Assembly (NCBI GenBank): GCA_047975295.1
Contig: JBKEDH010000167.1
Coordinates: 1 to 14,384 of the forward strand
DNA: 14,384 nt
Origin: Aestuariibaculum sp.
GTDB taxonomy: Bacteria > Bacteroidota > Bacteroidia > Flavobacteriales > Flavobacteriaceae
Reading direction: 5' to 3'
Position 1 is the first letter of the stretch, and each line of letters begins with the position of its first letter. The position numbers were made by a program, and so were the translations under genes. The notes below the pieces were generated by a model. The model did no database searches. It was not told the DNA's origin and saw only the letters and a list, made by a program, of their open reading frames with translations. Below are positions 4,588-9,136 of the stretch, one piece after another.

Positions 4588-5598
4588 TCATTCCTGTTTC
4601 CGTTCATAATTCCTAACCGCCAACTTTTGTTTAAACAAAATACGGTTTCGCAATTTTCTGGGCTTTAAAACCTCCAGACTTTCACCAAATCCGAGAATTA
4701 AACGCTCCAATTCGTAATTAATCTGAACAAAAATATTAAAAACAACGCCATCCTCACGGGTTTCTATAATACGCTGCGACCAATGGAAAGGCTTTGTAAT
4801 AATATAAGGTGCATTTTTTTTATTGACCCAAAATTGTATGCATTCGGCTTTGATGTTCGATACGGTTACGCCTACTACATCGCTATAAAAATCGTCGCCG
4901 TTAACGGCCATATCTATATATTTAAGTTTTTTGTTCTGTTTTATACCAATTATCCGGTCTAAAGCAAGTGTTATAAACTTTTCATTTTGGTAGGCCAGTA
5001 AAAACCAACGGTTATTAAACTCTTTTAATAATTGCGGGTGTACTTCTATAATTTTAGGTACTCTTGCCGAAAACGACTGATAATTAACATTAATAACAGT
5101 TTTATCTTGAATGGTTTTATAAATAACATCAATAAAGTTTAGCCCCTTTAATTGTTCGTTCTTATCTAAATGAATAATGGCCCGTTTATTGACCTGAGAT
5201 GCGTAAACCGAATCTTCCAGACGCTGTAAAACACCGTCCATCTCCTTAAAAAGCGAAAAATCCTTAAATTGTTTTAATACTTGGATGGCATTGTTCATTA
5301 TTTCAACGTCTTTATCGGTTACGGGAATGTTTACAATACTGTAATTTTCGTCTTCATATTTATAATACTTCCTATTGTAAACCACAATAGGCGCATTATA
5401 ACCAAGTTTATCACTACGCATTATTTGTATATCCAATTGTACGGTACGCTTGCTAACATTAACATCTTTACCTTCGTATTCGTAAAGAGCGTCCGATACG
5501 GCTTCTATTAAATCGTCTAATGTCCAGCTTCTAAAATGGTTTTGAAGACATTTATCTATGGTTTTATATCTAATAAGAGCGTTTTTATTAACGGCCAT
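4588..5598 (-). CDS. WYL-domain transcriptional regulator (N-terminal wHTH, central WYL, C-terminal WCX-like; BrxR/CapW/PafBC-like architecture)
   Basis: 336 aa. N-terminal HTH-like SKRTVQLDIQIM. Central segment INVNYQSFSARVPKIIEVHPQLLKEFNNRWFLLAYQNEKFITLALDRI matches the WYL domain consensus (Y.S....R.V.P..L......WYL.AY........F.LDRI). The length is typical for this family. The gene is divergent from the ncRNA/SPFH/RtcB cluster. Confidence 0.8.
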   Translation of the reverse strand: MAVNKNALIRYKTIDKCLQNHFRSWTLDDLIEAVSDALYEYEGKDVNVSKRTVQLDIQIMRSDKLGYNAPIVVYNRKYYKYEDENYSIVNIPVTDKDVEIMNNAIQVLKQFKDFSLFKEMDGVLQRLEDSVYASQVNKRAIIHLDKNEQLKGLNFIDVIYKTIQDKTVINVNYQSFSARVPKIIEVHPQLLKEFNNRWFLLAYQNEKFITLALDRIIGIKQNKKLKYIDMAVNGDDFYSDVVGVTVSNIKAECIQFWVNKKNAPYIITKPFHWSQRIIETREDGVVFNIFVQINYELERLILGFGESLEVLKPRKLRNRILFKQKLAVRNYERKQE

Positions 5599-5660
5599 AA
5601 TGTTACTGTTCTAATTCATTTTTACTAAAATATAAGAAATTTTTCAAAAAAAAATTAAAC

Positions 5661-5679
5661 TACGCAAAAACATTGCGTA
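5661..5679. promoter_or_regulatory. Perfect palindrome TACGCAA-N5-TTGCGTA, candidate operator (possibly for the adjacent WYL regulator)
   Basis: 7-bp arms are exact reverse complements with a 5-nt spacer. It lies 63 bp upstream of the WYL gene start codon and overlaps the candidate -33 element of a plus-strand promoter. Confidence 0.4.
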
Positions 5680-5700
5680 ATTACATGAAAATATTTGCAA
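5671..5700 (+). promoter_or_regulatory. Candidate Bacteroidetes-type sigma-A promoter for the plus-strand tRNA-like/Y-RNA-like transcript
   Basis: TTG at 5673-5675 and TATTTG at 5692-5697 approximate TAnnTTTG. The spacing is shorter than the ~19-nt consensus. A transcription start near 5704 is implied. This is a weak motif-only call. Confidence 0.25.
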
Positions 5701-5742
5701 TGTAATAATAAAGAAGTCTTCTTTTTAGACTTTGTAAGTAGT

Positions 5743-5772
5743 GCTCCACCAGACACAGGAAGCTGGTGGAGC
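5743..5772 (+). other. Strong hairpin: 10-bp perfect stem GCTCCACCAG/CTGGTGGAGC with 10-nt loop ACACAGGAAG
   Basis: Direct reverse-complement reading. It sits between the candidate promoter and the first tRNA-like module. It follows a second palindrome, AAAGAAG-T-CTTCTTT, at 5710-5724. Confidence 0.5.
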
Positions 5773-5798: not shown

Positions 5799-5870
5799 CT
5801 GGAAAAATAACAATGGCTGTTTGCTCGCTTTGGAAGCGGGAGGTTGCAGGTTCGAATCCTGCTTTCCAGA
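5799..5870 (+). tRNA. tRNA-like, canonical order, Pro(UGG)-like anticodon loop; atypical D-arm (possible pseudo-tRNA or part of a Y-RNA-like transcript)
   Basis: Cloverleaf reads CTGGAAA/TTTCCAG (perfect 7-bp acceptor, C1-G72 as in bacterial tRNA-Pro), AA, weak D-arm TAAC-AATGGCT-GTTT, G, anticodon stem CTCGC/GCGGG, loop TTTGGAA (U33, anticodon TGG, A37), variable AGGTT, T-arm GCAGG-TTCGAAT-CCTGC, discriminator A. No CCA is encoded. A8 and the 3-bp A/T D-stem are non-canonical. Confidence 0.45.
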
Positions 5871-6017
5871 CAAATGCCTGTAATAAAAAATATCAAGCAA
5901 GTCCTGTTGGGTGTTTCGGTATAGCACTATTGTATAAAACCTTGCCGATGGGTATTAGGTATTTATATGCAACTTGACTTGAAGGTTTCGAATTGTTTAT
6001 CCAAAAAACAATCACCA

Positions 6018-6087
6018 TCTATCTGTCACGGGTTCGAATCCCGTTCCCAACAAAAGTTGGGATAGCTCAGTTTGGTAGAGCAATAGA
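6018..6087 (+). ncRNA. Circularly permuted tRNA-like module (YrlA-type Y RNA-like tRNA mimic)
   Basis: Order is TCTAT (anticodon-stem 3' strand), CTGTC (variable), ACGGG-TTCGAAT-CCCGT (T-arm), TCCCAAC (acceptor 3' strand), AAAA loop, GTTGGGA (acceptor 5' strand), TA, GCTC-AGTTTGGTA-GAGC (D-arm), A, ATAGA (anticodon-stem 5' strand). All helices are perfect Watson-Crick. The element spacings equal those of a real tRNA but the order is permuted and the acceptor stem is loop-closed. Confidence 0.55.
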
Positions 6088-6096
6088 TTATCAATT

Positions 6097-6166
6097 GTAG
6101 GTTCGAATCCTACTCATGCAAAAACGTGATGGCGAAATTGGTAAACGCACTGTAACTGGGTTACAG
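6097..6166 (+). ncRNA. Second tRNA-like module in the same T-arm, stem-loop, D-arm order (degenerate)
   Basis: T-arm GTAGG-TTCGAAT-CCTAC (6097-6113), weak stem-loop region 6114-6131, class-II-like D-arm GCG-AAATTGGTAAA-CGC (6132-6148), A, then hairpin CTGTA(A)-ACTGGGT-TACAG (6150-6166). The acceptor strands do not pair, so this is not a canonical tRNA. Confidence 0.35.
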
Positions 6167-6172
6167 CTTGAA

Positions 6173-6195
6173 ATGGACTCAAAATCCATATTTTT
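6173..6195 (+). terminator. Rho-independent terminator-like hairpin ending the tRNA-like/Y-RNA-like region
   Basis: ATGGA-CTCAAAA-TCCAT stem-loop followed by ATTTTT. A second similar hairpin, ACAGTT-ATATTAA-AACTGT plus TTTTAT, lies at 6286-6310. Confidence 0.4.
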
Positions 6196-6512
6196 AAAAG
6201 AAAACCAACTTTTTAAAATAGGTTACAAAAAAAACAAGGCAAAAGGTTACCGGCCAATAAGGCAATCGGGGTGACACCTTGAAATACAGTTATATTAAAA
6301 CTGTTTTTATAAGTTCTTTAAAGGTCCATACATTGGAAAAATATTGTGATTTTCACGATAAGCAACCAATATATCTGCCTTAAAAACAAGTTATAATACA
6401 CTTTAATCACTTGTATTTCCGTAGTTGGAACGATGGTTCTCTTTTGCTTTGTTTTCAATTAAAAAATAATAACAAATAAAAAATAAAAACCAATAATTAA
6501 ATAACTATAAAA

Positions 6513-7613
6513 ATGAAACGAGTACGTATTAACACAGGAACAGTAGGATTAGTGTTTAAAAACGGTAACTACAAACGTACACTTACCAATGGCACTTATT
6601 GGGTAGGATTTGGCAAACACGTCGAAAAATATGCTTTAAACCACGAATTTTATGCCCCAAAACCATTGGAAATATTAATGGAAGATAGTACACTAACAAA
6701 TATGCTACACGTGGTCGATGTTTTAGATAATGAAATTGTACTAGTTTACGAAAACAATAATTTTAAACGAGTGTTGGGAGCAGGCCGATACACCTTTTGG
6801 AATACCTTAATCGAATATAAATTCGTTACGGTCAATTTAAGTAAAATCGATATTACCGAAAGCATCGATAAAACTGTATTAAGCCATGCCCAGTTATTAC
6901 CTTATGTGCGTGTTTTTGAAATTGCTGCTTACGAAAAAGCCATTTTAATGGTCGATGATACATATATAAAAACATTGAATCACGGTACATACCGGTTTTG
7001 GAAAAACCAGCAAACCATAAAAATAGCAAAAGCCGATTTACGCCAATTACAATTAGAAATAGCAGGGCAAGAGCTACTTACAAAAGACAAAGCAACCATT
7101 CGAATCAATTTTTATGCACAGTATAAAATAACCGATATAGAAACCGCCTTAATGCAAAATAAAGATTACGAAAAACAACTTTATATAACTTTGCAATTGG
7201 CATTAAGGGCCTATGTTGGCACCTATACACTCGATGAGTTGTTAGAACAAAAAGACAACGTAGCAAAAGTCGTTTTGAACAATGTAAAAGCACAAGCCAA
7301 CAAATTAGGCGTTAACGTATTGCACACAGGTATGCGTGACATAATTTTACCGGGCGACATGAAAGATATTATGAATCAAGTACTAATCGCACAGAAAAAA
7401 GCACAGGCCAATGTTATTACAAGGCGCGAAGAAACAGCTTCTACACGAAGTCTGTTAAACACCGCCAAATTAATGGAAGACAACACCATGTTGTTCAAAT
7501 TAAAGGAAATGGAATACGTCGAAAAAATAGCCGATAAAATTGGAAAAATTACAGTGGCTGGAAACGGAAACGTTATTGAGCAATTAAAAGATATTTTTTC
7601 GGTTAACAAATAA
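6513..7613 (+). CDS. SPFH/band-7 (slipin/stomatin-like) domain protein, no predicted TM helix
   Basis: 366 aa. The C-terminal half (QELLTKDKATIRINFYAQYKITDIETAL...GVNVLHTGMRDIILPGDMKDIMNQVLIAQKKAQANVITRREETA) matches the SPFH core and the following coiled coil. The N-terminal half carries three G-x-Y-x-FW repeats ~65 aa apart. There is no N-terminal hydrophobic anchor. Confidence 0.7.
   Translation: MKRVRINTGTVGLVFKNGNYKRTLTNGTYWVGFGKHVEKYALNHEFYAPKPLEILMEDSTLTNMLHVVDVLDNEIVLVYENNNFKRVLGAGRYTFWNTLIEYKFVTVNLSKIDITESIDKTVLSHAQLLPYVRVFEIAAYEKAILMVDDTYIKTLNHGTYRFWKNQQTIKIAKADLRQLQLEIAGQELLTKDKATIRINFYAQYKITDIETALMQNKDYEKQLYITLQLALRAYVGTYTLDELLEQKDNVAKVVLNNVKAQANKLGVNVLHTGMRDIILPGDMKDIMNQVLIAQKKAQANVITRREETASTRSLLNTAKLMEDNTMLFKLKEMEYVEKIADKIGKITVAGNGNVIEQLKDIFSVNK

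Positions 7614-7744: not shown

Positions 7745-9136
<1,392 letters not shown>

What the first reader, a model, noticed from the sequence alone, without database searches (positions are those of the whole stretch)
6018..6087. Perfectly formed circularly permuted tRNA-like module, the architecture of YrlA-type Y RNAs
The helices of a complete tRNA are all present here, but the 3' half precedes the 5' half. The order is anticodon-stem 3' strand TCTAT, 5-nt variable CTGTC, T-arm ACGGG-TTCGAAT-CCCGT, acceptor 3' strand TCCCAAC, a 4-nt AAAA loop, acceptor 5' strand GTTGGGA, TA, D-arm GCTC-AGTTTGGTA-GAGC, A, then anticodon-stem 5' strand ATAGA. The acceptor is 7/7 Watson-Crick, the T-stem 5/5, the D-stem 4/4, and ATAGA/TCTAT 5/5. 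All spacings (variable = 5, positions 8-9 = TA, position 26 = A) are exactly those of a tRNA. A canonical-order reading fails, because only 16 nt separate the D-arm from the next T-arm and the acceptor strands do not match. From established knowledge (bacterial Y RNAs, YrlA class, described as tRNA mimics encoded next to rsr/rtcB in Salmonella, Mycobacterium and many others): those RNAs have exactly this topology. They have a T-arm, an acceptor-like stem closed by a loop, and a D-arm, and the position of the anticodon stem is occupied by the stem formed by the RNA's ends. An RtcB gene lies 1.7 kb downstream in the same orientation.
Basis: partly seen in the sequence, partly recalled or inferred. 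Interest (0 to 1): 0.85.

Follow-up and report, generated by a model that had tools for sequence, protein, structure and literature searches.

The report
Capped tRNA mimic in RNA-repair locus
The flagged 70 bases are a real, conserved tRNA-shaped RNA module with its halves in swapped order. It is one unit of a larger unannotated noncoding RNA found next to a slipin (SPFH) gene in every related locus and near an RtcB RNA-ligase gene in the window and 24 of 80 loci. It resembles the tRNA-like part of bacterial Y RNAs but lacks what defines a Y RNA.

Summary
All four helices co-vary across 42 Flavobacteriaceae loci: 95% of cells are paired, against 38-49% in slid controls.

The YrlA interpretation is only partly right.
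- The Rfam YrlA model matches the tRNA-like core (47 bits, E 3e-9) but falls below its gathering score of 69.
- The closing stem is a 5-bp internal helix, not a long terminal Ro-binding stem.
- No Rsr/TROVE gene lies nearby.

The module is unit A of a tandem chain. A second permuted unit, B (6097-6166), keeps an anticodon-like arm. Both sit in a conserved noncoding region of about 330 nt (about 500 nt counted from the putative promoter). That region contains:
- a conserved operator and promoter,
- a tRNA-Pro-like element,
- a strongly conserved 95-nt 5' domain,
- the two modules, and
- a vestigial T-arm.

The same layout precedes the SPFH (slipin) gene in all 78 assessable related loci. Those loci often also carry RtcB, PrfH, a TPR protein and 10-17-gene tRNA arrays. 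Weaker matches to the same model lie upstream of slipin homologues in a Firmicute and several Proteobacteria.

This fits the "Band-7-associated tRNA-like RNA" predicted by Burroughs and Aravind (2016), which has not been validated experimentally. The function is inferred: a capped tRNA mimic acting as scaffold or decoy in RNA repair.

The parts
4588..5598 (-). Divergently transcribed WYL/WCX-domain regulator (336 aa)
   Evidence: Pfam WYL 7.7e-8 and WCX 8.5e-10. Homologues in the same position in 9 of 80 related loci.
5660..5680 (.). Operator-like palindrome CTACGCAAAAACATTGCGTAA in the divergent promoter region
   Evidence: The motif TACGCAAAA-N4-TGCG[CT]A, followed after about 10-12 nt by ATATTTG, is conserved in at least 20 loci, 770-1090 nt upstream of the SPFH gene. 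Its role as an operator is inferred.
5690..5697 (+). AATATTTG, resembling the Bacteroidetes -7 promoter box (TAnnTTTG)
   Evidence: Conserved together with the palindrome. The promoter assignment is inferred from the known Bacteroidetes consensus. No transcript data are available.
5714..5772 (+). Two leader hairpins: AAGTCT/AGACTT (5714-5732) and GCTCCACCAG/CTGGTGGAGC (5743-5772)
   Evidence: Both appear in the predicted fold. The second co-varies in alignment A1, for example GCTCTGCCAG/CTGGCAGAGC.
5799..5870 (+). Canonical-order tRNA-Pro(UGG)-like element with a degenerate D-arm. It ends 21 nt before the conserved 5' domain.
   Evidence: Rfam tRNA 51.9 bits, but rejected by ARAGORN. The same slot holds a Pro-like or Tyr-like tRNA in related loci.
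5892..5985 (+). Strongly conserved 5' domain (ATCAAGCAAGTC ... AACTTGACTTGAAGG) forming a three-way junction: P1, a P2 hairpin GTGTT-TCGGTAT-AGCAC, and a long P3 hairpin
   Evidence: Sequence motifs of the domain found in all 78 assessable loci (the 5' start motif in 73). RNAalifold on 38 loci gives 29 pairs, 14 with compensatory changes. No Rfam family matches it.
5990..6013 (+). Hairpin Px (GAATTGTT / AACAATC) with an A-rich loop, possibly forming a pseudoknot with the preceding GG
   Evidence: The stem co-varies on inspection, for example GACTGTT/AATAGTC and GGTTATT/AATAACC. RNAalifold left this stretch unpaired. The pseudoknot was only inspected by eye and not tested.
6018..6087 (+). Module A, the finding: a permuted, capped tRNA mimic. 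Closing stem 6018-6022 with 6083-6087; variable loop 6023-6027; T-arm 6028-6044; capped acceptor 6045-6062; TA 6063-6064; D-arm 6065-6081.
6097..6166 (+). Module B, a second permuted tRNA mimic derived from a tRNA-Leu-like body. T-arm GTAGG-TTCGAAT-CCTAC 6097-6113; capped acceptor TCATG-CAAAAA-CGTGA 6114-6129; TG; D-arm GCG-AAATTGGTAAA-CGC 6132-6148; anticodon-like arm CTGTA-ACTGGGT-TACAG 6150-6166.
   Evidence: 99.6% of cells paired in 31 loci, and 12 of 18 pairs change on both sides. Model R1 scores 82.6 bits here.
6173..6196 (+). Hairpin ATGGA-CTCAAAA-TCCAT followed by a T-run. It is a vestigial T-arm of the last tRNA-derived segment and a possible weak terminator.
   Evidence: Conserved in position and sequence in about half of the loci (41 of 79). 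The terminator role is inferred.
6203..6224 (+). 3' hairpin AACC/GGTT with the conserved loop CTTTTTAAAAT
   Evidence: The stem co-varies (GGTC/GACC, GATCA/TGATC, TCATCA/TGATGA) around a conserved loop.
6513..7613 (+). SPFH/Band-7 (slipin) protein of 366 aa with no obvious transmembrane segment. It is the constant partner gene of the RNA.
   Evidence: Pfam Band_7 6e-26. Named a slipin family protein in NCBI. Homologues in 80 of 80 loci. Sequence read.
7763..9136 (+). RtcB-family RNA ligase (457 aa)
   Evidence: Pfam RtcB 6e-38. NCBIfam RtcB family models match below their cut-offs.

Best explanation
Positions 6018-6087 encode the first of two tRNA-shaped domains of a noncoding RNA. The conserved region spans 5892-6224 (about 330 nt), or about 500 nt counted from the putative promoter near 5700. 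This RNA is the cognate partner of the SPFH(slipin)/RtcB RNA-repair locus.

The RNA derives from tandem tRNA genes whose acceptor strands now pair between neighbours instead of within one tRNA. The T-arm of segment n stacks on a loop-capped acceptor helix. That helix is formed with the 5' acceptor strand of segment n+1. The D-arm of segment n+1, joined by the usual two nucleotides, can then dock on the T-loop to make a tRNA elbow. In module A the anticodon stem is also formed between neighbours and there is no anticodon loop. Module B keeps a local anticodon-like arm.

Because the acceptor end is capped, the module cannot be aminoacylated.

Inferred mechanism: by analogy with Rsr/YrlA, the conserved 5' domain binds the SPFH assembly. 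The capped tRNA mimics present tRNA-like surfaces to tRNA-recognising proteins. These could be RtcB or its cofactors, or incoming tRNA-cleaving toxins, for which the mimics would act as decoy or sensor. The whole unit would be induced from an operator-controlled promoter during damage to the translation apparatus.

Shown here: the structure, its conservation, its covariation and its gene linkage. Inferred: transcription, protein binding and function.
For: Structure and selection:
- Module A: (95% paired; 14 of 20 pairs compensatory).
- Module B: (99.6% paired).
- Neighbour pairing versus canonical pairing: 5.6 of 7 against 2.6 of 7.
- Acceptor loops of A and B are short caps such as GAAA, TAAC and AAAA. 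None of 91 starts with NCCA.
- Anticodon-like loops keep U33 (36 of 37) and a purine at position 37 (37 of 37), but the triplet varies. 12 different triplets occur among 37 orthologues, so they have no conserved decoding identity.

Larger RNA:
- The same order of 5' domain, modules and 3' hairpins is found in 78 of 78 assessable loci.
- The 5' domain fold has compensatory changes.
- A conserved promoter and operator lie upstream.

Linkage:
- SPFH is present in 80 of 80 loci. RtcB, PrfH (TIGR03072, 226 bits), a TPR protein and tRNA arrays are in the neighbourhood.
- The module-B model gives full-length but modest, low-scoring matches (E 1.5e-4 to 0.04) on the + strand upstream of slipin homologues in Photobacterium, Subdoligranulum, E. 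coli and Citrobacter. In Burkholderia only the T-arm matches.
- In Subdoligranulum the operon is SPFH-RtcB-RlaP. In Citrobacter it is RtcR, then SPFH-RlaP.

Literature:
- A Band-7-associated tRNA-like RNA and YrlA next to Band-7 genes were predicted by Burroughs and Aravind 2016, as summarised in bioRxiv 10.1101/312249.
- The same preprint reports that the YrlA tRNA-like domain folds like tRNA and proposes an origin from a dimeric tRNA.
- In Anabaena, rtcB, a slipin gene and a tRNA array are co-derepressed in the translational-stress regulon (PMC10272220; PMC8421152).
Against: - There is no expression, end-mapping, modification or binding data for this RNA in any organism.
- The role of the 5' domain as the SPFH-binding site is pure analogy.
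- RtcB is within 4 kb in only 24 of 80 loci, and it lies upstream in some of them. The only constant partner is therefore SPFH.
- The RNA always lies upstream of SPFH on the same strand, so a cis-regulatory leader role cannot be excluded.
- The primary paper that defines b7a-tRNA could not be read. Identity with that class therefore rests on a secondary summary.
Confidence: 0.7

Rival explanations
1. It is a genuine YrlA-class Y RNA. It would bind an Rsr (Ro60) protein encoded elsewhere in the genome and tether it to an effector, as in Salmonella or Deinococcus.
For: The YrlA covariance model matches with E = 3.3e-9. The T-arm, capped acceptor and D-arm align nearly perfectly. An RtcB gene is nearby, as in rsr-yrlBA-rtcBA operons.
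Against: The score of 47.1 is below the gathering score of 69, and the Ro-binding stem segments are deleted or mismatched. The closing stem is only 5 bp and is internal. No TROVE domain is found in the window. No conserved large neighbour other than RtcB appears in 80 loci. No YrlA hit at gathering score is found in 16 loci.
Confidence: 0.07
2. It is a cis-acting leader of the SPFH (and RtcB) mRNA. The tRNA-like modules would sense a tRNA-handling activity (RNase P, modification enzymes, RtcB, or cleavage by a toxin) and control read-through at the hairpin and T-run at 6173-6196.
For: The RNA is always upstream of SPFH and on the same strand, in 78 of 78 loci. A hairpin followed by a T-run comes after the modules. 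A single conserved operator-controlled promoter lies upstream of the whole region.
Against: About 320 nt separate the last module from the SPFH start codon, and that gap holds further conserved hairpins. The terminator-like hairpin is weak (5 bp) and was not called by the terminator scan. The related YrlA RNAs are stable trans-acting RNAs. This rival is not exclusive of the main explanation.
Confidence: 0.13
3. These are circularly permuted or split pre-tRNA genes. RNase P and tRNase Z would open the acceptor loops and RtcB would join the ends, giving functional tRNAs, as in Cyanidioschyzon merolae.
For: The 3' half precedes the 5' half. The acceptor is 7 bp. RtcB is adjacent. Full tRNA arrays lie next door in relatives. 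In the third module type (C, absent from this window) 6-11 of 42 acceptor loops begin with ACCA, ACC or ACT, like a tRNA 3' trailer.
Against: Module A has no anticodon loop at all. The acceptor loops of A and B are 3-6-nt caps without a discriminator or CCA (0 of 91). The 'anticodon' is not conserved among orthologues. The anticodon-like loop of module B in this window lacks U33. No bulge-helix-bulge motif flanks the closing stem, and no bacterial splicing endonuclease is known.
Confidence: 0.05
4. It is a decayed tRNA gene fragment, a rearrangement or an integration-site remnant with no function of its own.
For: The region is adjacent to tRNA arrays in relatives and contains a degenerate tRNA-Pro-like element and a vestigial T-arm.
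Against: The same permuted module sits at the same place in at least 42 genomes from many genera. Compensatory changes occur in every helix and the tertiary-contact nucleotides are conserved.
Confidence: 0.02

Closest known systems
[quoted passage not shown] 2018, bioRxiv 10.1101/312249
   Same: It is a tRNA-like noncoding element encoded next to an SPFH/Band-7 gene in an RtcB-type RNA-repair locus. Homologous loci in Photobacterium and Burkholderia carry tRNA-like elements in the same position. That summary also says YrlA-like RNAs are occasionally found next to Band-7 genes.
   Different: The proteobacterial examples examined here are canonical-order tRNA-like genes. Their own acceptor strands pair 7 of 7 in Photobacterium and 6 bp in Burkholderia (by inspection). 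The Flavobacteriaceae version, and the one in Subdoligranulum, is register-shifted and capped. The Flavobacteriaceae version comes as 2-3 tandem modules and is fused to a conserved 95-nt 5' domain. I could not check whether the original paper described this.
YrlA (Rfam RF02553), the tRNA-like class of bacterial Y RNAs
   Same: The core topology and near-identical consensus nucleotides are shared: T-arm, loop-capped acceptor, D-arm and anticodon-stem-like closing helix. A likely origin from a tRNA dimer is shared. Both are linked to RtcB.
   Different: There is no long terminal stem with an Ro60/Rsr-binding site and no rsr gene. The score is below the gathering threshold. The module is embedded internally in a larger RNA and is followed by a second module that has an anticodon-like arm.
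Circularly permuted tRNA genes of Cyanidioschyzon merolae and Thermofilum pendens (PMC3978253)
   Same: The 3' half (variable loop, T-arm, acceptor 3' strand) precedes the 5' half (acceptor 5' strand, D-arm, anticodon-stem 5' strand), with an intervening loop at the acceptor end.
   Different: There is no bulge-helix-bulge motif and no anticodon loop in module A. The acceptor loop lacks a discriminator and trailer. The anticodon identity is not conserved. Nothing indicates maturation to a decoding tRNA.
[quoted passage not shown]
   Same: Arrays of 10-17 tRNA genes lie directly upstream of this RNA in many related loci. In Anabaena an array, rtcB and a slipin gene are co-regulated.
   Different: Those are canonical, presumably decoding tRNAs. 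The element studied here is a non-decoding derivative. In this window the array is reduced to one degenerate tRNA-Pro-like element.

Membership tests
YrlA / bacterial Y RNA | A tRNA-like domain with T-arm, loop-capped acceptor-like stem and D-arm | tested here: met
   Sequence reading, fold, alignment to the YrlA model and covariation.
YrlA / bacterial Y RNA | A long stem formed by the 5' and 3' ends of the RNA that carries the Ro60/Rsr-binding site | tested here: not met
   The middle 7-bp stem segment of the YrlA model is deleted and the outer segment is mismatched. The closing helix is 5 bp, and its sixth pair is unpaired in 30 of 42 loci. The T-arm of module B starts 9 nt downstream.
YrlA / bacterial Y RNA | Encoded next to rsr (Ro60 orthologue, TROVE domain) | tested here: not met
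   No protein in the window has a TROVE domain. No conserved neighbour of 430 aa or more apart from RtcB appears in 80 loci within 4 kb either side. The rest of the genome could not be searched.
YrlA / bacterial Y RNA | Reaches the curated Rfam gathering score for RF02553 | tested here: not met
   47.1 bits against 69. None of 16 related loci reaches it.
Band-7-associated tRNA-like RNA (b7a-tRNA) | Encoded adjacent to an SPFH/Band-7 gene in an RtcB-type RNA-repair neighbourhood | tested here: met
   In the window the order is RNA, SPFH, RtcB. The layout holds in 78 of 78 assessable loci. Weak (E 1.5e-4 to 0.04) model matches lie upstream of slipin homologues in four other bacterial genera, plus a T-arm-only match in Burkholderia.
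Band-7-associated tRNA-like RNA (b7a-tRNA) | Strong resemblance to an authentic tRNA | tested here: inconclusive
   All tRNA arms and tertiary-contact nucleotides are present, and the Rfam tRNA model hits 6061-6115 at 33.9 bits. However, the connectivity is permuted and ARAGORN calls nothing. The defining paper could not be read.
Circularly permuted tRNA gene | The 3' half lies upstream of the 5' half with an intervening sequence at the acceptor end | tested here: met
Circularly permuted tRNA gene | A bulge-helix-bulge motif at the termini and a complete anticodon loop after joining | tested here: not met
   The closing helix is a plain 5-bp stem with no anticodon-loop nucleotides and is flanked directly by other domains.
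Circularly permuted tRNA gene | Processed into a mature, aminoacylatable tRNA | not testable with these tools
   This needs tRNA sequencing or Northern blots. It is indirectly disfavoured: acceptor loops lack a discriminator and CCA (0 of 91), and the anticodon is not conserved.
Canonical tRNA gene | Acceptor 5' and 3' strands of one contiguous cloverleaf pair with each other | tested here: not met
   ARAGORN finds no genes. Canonical pairing averages 2.6 of 7, against 5.6 of 7 for permuted pairing.

The most novel reading that the evidence does not exclude
The tandem modules are substrates rather than mere mimics. RNase P and tRNase Z would open the capped acceptor helices, and RtcB would re-join the ends. 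The outcome would be split or re-circularised tRNA-like molecules, in the extreme functional tRNAs matured from permuted genes. That would be the first bacterial case of permuted tRNA genes and would give bacterial RtcB a dedicated physiological substrate.
Probability: 0.05. Interest if true: 0.95.

Novelty: new variant of a known kind. Interest (0 to 1): 0.6.

Why it matters
What bacterial RtcB repairs, and what its tRNA-like RNA partners do, is still unknown. The Band-7-associated RNA has only been predicted and never tested.

This analysis defines a large, strongly conserved and co-varying RNA family that no Rfam family other than the tRNA model reaches at its curated threshold. The family has clear domain boundaries, and its conserved core is found in all 78 assessable Flavobacteriaceae loci examined. 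Several of the carrier genera are cultured (for example Zobellia, Tenacibaculum, Winogradskyella, Aquimarina). Weak matches upstream of slipin homologues in a Firmicute and in Proteobacteria are also reported. A slipin-RlaP locus is present in about 30% of complete E. coli genomes.

This makes the SPFH/RtcB/tRNA-mimic hypothesis directly testable. It also shows one way tRNA mimics can evolve from tandem tRNA genes, namely by shifting which acceptor strands pair.

Tried and rejected
- ARAGORN on the window found no tRNA.
- Rfam at gathering threshold gave only two tRNA-model hits. Nothing matched the 5' domain.
- The canonical-order reading of the modules was rejected quantitatively.
- I checked whether the last module can switch to a canonical acceptor with a downstream strand. 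It cannot; the downstream 7 nt are not complementary.
- The odd 92-96-nt 'tRNAs' that ARAGORN calls in L022, L060 and L071 turn out to span module B, a variable arm and the next T-arm, with poor acceptor pairing.
- A scan of viral contigs with the SPFH protein found no relatives.
- The search for homologous proteins with SPFH returned only close Flavobacteriaceae relatives (68% identity or more among the 120 listed). It did not extend the taxonomic range. Plasmid tblastn did extend it.
- Burroughs and Aravind 2016 could not be retrieved by DOI or PMC id.
- A full-text search for b7a-tRNA found only the Wang et al. preprint.
- I considered that the P1 stem of the 5' domain, which contains ACUUGACU, might be an Ro-binding site. 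There is no Y RNA or YrlA model match there and no Rsr gene, so I did not pursue it.
- I considered that ACCA after hairpin Px mimics a tRNA 3' end. It is not conserved outside the close clade, so I dropped it.
Full report
**1.

Read directly from the sequence, 6018-6087 contains, in order:
- TCTAT
- a 5-nt variable loop, CTGTC
- a T-arm, ACGGG-TTCGAAT-CCCGT
- the acceptor 3' strand, TCCCAAC
- an AAAA loop
- the acceptor 5' strand, GTTGGGA
- TA
- a D-arm, GCTC-AGTTTGGTA-GAGC
- A
- ATAGA

The isolated 70-mer folds into this shape at -23.0 kcal/mol with z = -3.4, although the minimum-free-energy fold closes with the shifted register UCUGU/AUAGA rather than TCTAT/ATAGA. ARAGORN finds no tRNA gene in the whole window. 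The Rfam tRNA model reaches threshold only for a canonical-order tRNA-Pro(UGG)-like element at 5799-5870. It also gives a weak hybrid hit at 6061-6115 that joins the D-arm of this module to the T-arm of the next one.

**2. It is a selected structure, not chance or debris.**

The SPFH protein encoded just downstream retrieved 80 loci from many Flavobacteriaceae genera. I picked orthologous segments by anchors that ignore base pairing: a conserved upstream motif, then the first T-loop. This gave an alignment of 42 loci. Projecting the window's structure onto it gave these results:
- 95.0% of cells are paired, against 38-49% for slid partners and 77% for shuffles.
- 14 of 20 pairs change on both sides.
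- 0 of 500 shuffles reach the observed covariation score.
- The five outer pairs of the capped acceptor helix are paired in every sequence, and all co-vary.

The nucleotides that make tRNA tertiary contacts are invariant or nearly so. These are U8, A14, G15 with C48, the G18/G19 position, and the T-loop.

The sixth pair that would extend the closing stem is unpaired in 30 of 42 loci. The stem therefore has the length of an anticodon stem and no more.

**3. The module is one unit of a chain.**

Nine nucleotides downstream a second unit begins, at 6097-6166. It consists of:
- a T-arm, GTAGG-TTCGAAT-CCTAC
- a capped helix, TCATG-CAAAAA-CGTGA
- TG
- a tRNA-Leu-type D-arm, GCG-AAATTGGTAAA-CGC
- a 5-bp stem with a 7-nt loop

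In 31 loci this unit is 99.6% paired, and 12 of 18 pairs are compensatory.

Across 92 consecutive T-arm pairs, the acceptor 5' strand pairs with the 3' flank of the preceding T-arm (mean 5.6 of 7). It does not pair with the flank of the next T-arm (2.6 of 7, which is random level).

The simplest description is a concatemer of tRNA-derived segments whose acceptor strands pair between neighbours. T-arm(n) stacks on the capped helix. D-arm(n+1) is joined to that helix by the usual two nucleotides and can dock on T-loop(n). Related loci combine three module types, A, B and C, as A-B, A-C, A-B-C or B-C.

The caps of A and B are short loops such as GAAA, TAAC and AAAA. None of 91 begins with NCCA. 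The anticodon-like loops keep U33 and a purine at position 37, but the triplet is not conserved among orthologues. These are mimics, not decoding tRNAs.

**4. The surrounding RNA.**

Upstream of the modules lies a 95-nt domain at 5892-5985. Its sequence is almost invariant across genera. RNAalifold folds it into a three-way junction in which 14 of 29 pairs show compensatory changes. No Rfam family matches it.

A tRNA or tRNA-like element always precedes this domain. It is Pro-like in the window and Tyr-like in many relatives.

Further upstream is a conserved palindrome, TACGCAAAA-N4-TGCGYA. It is followed by ATATTTG, which resembles a Bacteroidetes -7 box (window 5660-5697). It lies in the divergent region shared with a WYL-domain regulator gene.

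Downstream of the modules come a vestigial T-arm hairpin with a T-run (6173-6196) and a hairpin with a conserved loop (6203-6224). The order 5' domain, modules, 3' hairpins is found in all 78 loci where the upstream sequence is available.

**5. Gene context.**

The window encodes, in order: a WYL regulator on the minus strand, the RNA, an SPFH/Band-7 (slipin) protein, and RtcB.

In the 80 loci:
- SPFH is constant.
- RtcB is within 4 kb in 24 loci, either downstream or upstream.
- PrfH (TIGR03072, above its cut-off) is present in 16 loci.
- A TPR-like protein is present in 43 loci.
- Nucleotidyltransferase-like, RNase H-like and phosphoesterase genes occur sporadically.
- Many loci carry arrays of 10-17 tRNA genes immediately upstream on the same strand.

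No TROVE/Rsr protein is in the window. No conserved large neighbour other than RtcB exists.

**6. Beyond Flavobacteriaceae.**

tblastn of the SPFH protein against plasmid and chromid records found homologues at 32-41% identity in Subdoligranulum, Photobacterium, Citrobacter, E. coli and Burkholderia.
- In Subdoligranulum the operon is SPFH-RtcB-RlaP.
- In Citrobacter it is RtcR, then SPFH-RlaP.

A covariance model built from module B gives full-length but low-scoring matches on the + strand upstream of the slipin gene in four of the five loci, with E from 1.5e-4 to 0.04. In Burkholderia only the T-arm matches.

By inspection the loci differ.
- Subdoligranulum has the same permuted layout: T-arm, 7-bp capped helix, TG, D-arm, hairpin.
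- Photobacterium and Burkholderia have canonical-order tRNA-like genes whose own acceptor strands pair.
- The enterobacterial copies keep only a T-arm plus a capped helix.

In E. coli the slipin locus with its upstream region is present in 1628 of 5426 complete genomes. No RNA feature is annotated there.

**7. Comparison with what is known.**

The Rfam YrlA model matches the tRNA-like core (47.1 bits, E = 3.3e-9). It misses its gathering score of 69 because the Ro-binding stem is absent. None of 16 related loci reaches the threshold. Three of the four defining features of a Y RNA were tested and not met. The element works like the YrlA tRNA domain but is not a Y RNA.

The better fit is the class predicted by Burroughs and Aravind (2016). 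According to the summary in Wang et al. (bioRxiv 10.1101/312249):
- RtcB next to a Band-7 protein comes with a tRNA-like RNA called b7a-tRNA.
- YrlA-like RNAs are occasionally found next to Band-7 genes.

I could not read the primary paper. I therefore cannot say whether the register-shifted tandem architecture and the 5' domain were described there.

Other literature context:
- The PrfH-RtcB-TPR-nucleotidyltransferase neighbourhood is known (PMC6514570).
- Long tRNA arrays occur in Bacteroidetes. In Anabaena they are induced by translational stress together with rtcB (PMC8421152).
- The same TrcR regulon includes a slipin gene (PMC10272220).

**8. Mechanism.**

Shown here:
- a conserved, co-varying, capped tRNA-shaped fold
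- its tandem organisation
- its fusion to a conserved structured domain
- its strict linkage to SPFH, and looser linkage to RtcB, PrfH and tRNA arrays
- a conserved operator-like site upstream

Inferred:
- The RNA is transcribed from that promoter under control of the WYL regulator or a related repressor.
- The 5' domain anchors it to the SPFH assembly.
- The capped mimics engage tRNA-recognising proteins. These could be RtcB or its cofactors, or invading tRNA-cleaving nucleases, for which the mimics would serve as decoy or sensor.

This follows the logic of Rsr/YrlA. A cis-regulatory leader role is a live alternative and is compatible with the main explanation. Maturation into real tRNAs is unlikely, for the reasons given in point 3. 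A non-functional remnant is excluded by the covariation.

**9. Verdict.**

The element is a new variant of a predicted but untested kind of RNA-repair cofactor RNA. It has a well-defined family and clear experiments to do. Interest is moderate to high (0.6). It is a striking and well-supported structure in an unsolved system, but it was anticipated in outline by earlier comparative genomics.

Noticed in passing
L008 93-1852; L015 809-2100; L026 2044-3159; L033 763-2042; L043 2025-2990; L056 2238-3148; L071 218-2168: Arrays of 10-17 canonical tRNA genes lie immediately upstream of the noncoding RNA on the same strand in many related loci. In this window the array is reduced to one degenerate tRNA-Pro-like element.
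   Followed up: partly
window 5799-5870: This tRNA-Pro(UGG)-like element scores 51.9 bits on the Rfam tRNA model, but its D-arm is degenerate and position 8 is A, and ARAGORN rejects it. The same odd D-arm is conserved in L001, L005 and L027. The element ends 21 nt before the conserved 5' domain, so it may serve as a processing signal rather than a decoding tRNA.
   Followed up: partly
L007, L009, L010 (alignment A1 columns 229-285): The Tyr(GUA)-like tRNA that precedes the 5' domain carries an insertion of about 57 nt, made of two hairpins, inside its anticodon loop in these three loci. In L002, L012, L014 and others the loop is intact.
   Followed up: no
window 5660-5697: A palindrome, TACGCAAAAACATTGCGTA, followed by a promoter-like ATATTTG lies between the divergent WYL gene and the RNA. 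The motif is conserved in at least 20 loci, including loci with no WYL gene within 4 kb.
   Followed up: partly
window 5892-5985: A nearly invariant 95-nt structured domain forms a three-way junction and matches no Rfam family. Its P1 3' strand contains ACUUGACU, an 8-mer that, as I recall, also occurs in the Ro-binding stem of human Y1 RNA. This is probably coincidence and was not tested.
   Followed up: partly
L045 21-2181; L060 271-2490; L026 2-1230: In many related loci RtcB, PrfH (release factor H) and a TPR protein lie upstream of the tRNA array and the RNA, instead of RtcB lying downstream of SPFH. This links the RNA to the ribosome-rescue RtcB-PrfH system.
   Followed up: partly
L022 3702-3832; L053 3714-3841; L001 7942-8016 and 5130-5201(-): Rfam Flavo-1 (RF01705) matches above gathering score. 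In L022 and L053 they sit between the noncoding RNA and the SPFH start codon.
   Followed up: no
window 6513-7613 (protein residues 1-170): The SPFH protein has no obvious hydrophobic membrane segment. Its N-terminal part contains three copies of a motif like VxxxNGNYxRxLxxGxYxFW ahead of the Band-7 domain. No structure prediction was run.
   Followed up: no
L082 4469-5100 (E. coli); L081 4547-4994 (Citrobacter): A slipin-RlaP operon, with a T-arm and capped hairpin in its unannotated upstream region, is present in 1628 of 5426 complete E. coli genomes. In Citrobacter it lies next to a divergently transcribed rtcR gene, with a sequence resembling a sigma-54 promoter (by eye) in between.
   Followed up: partly
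L009 2708; L030 2717; L033 2791; L042 786: Additional stand-alone permuted-looking modules lie about 700 nt upstream of the main RNA. Each has a T-arm, a 6-7-bp helix whose loop begins ACCA or ATCA, a D-arm and an anticodon arm. Whether they are junctions of tandem near-identical tRNAs was not checked.
   Followed up: no
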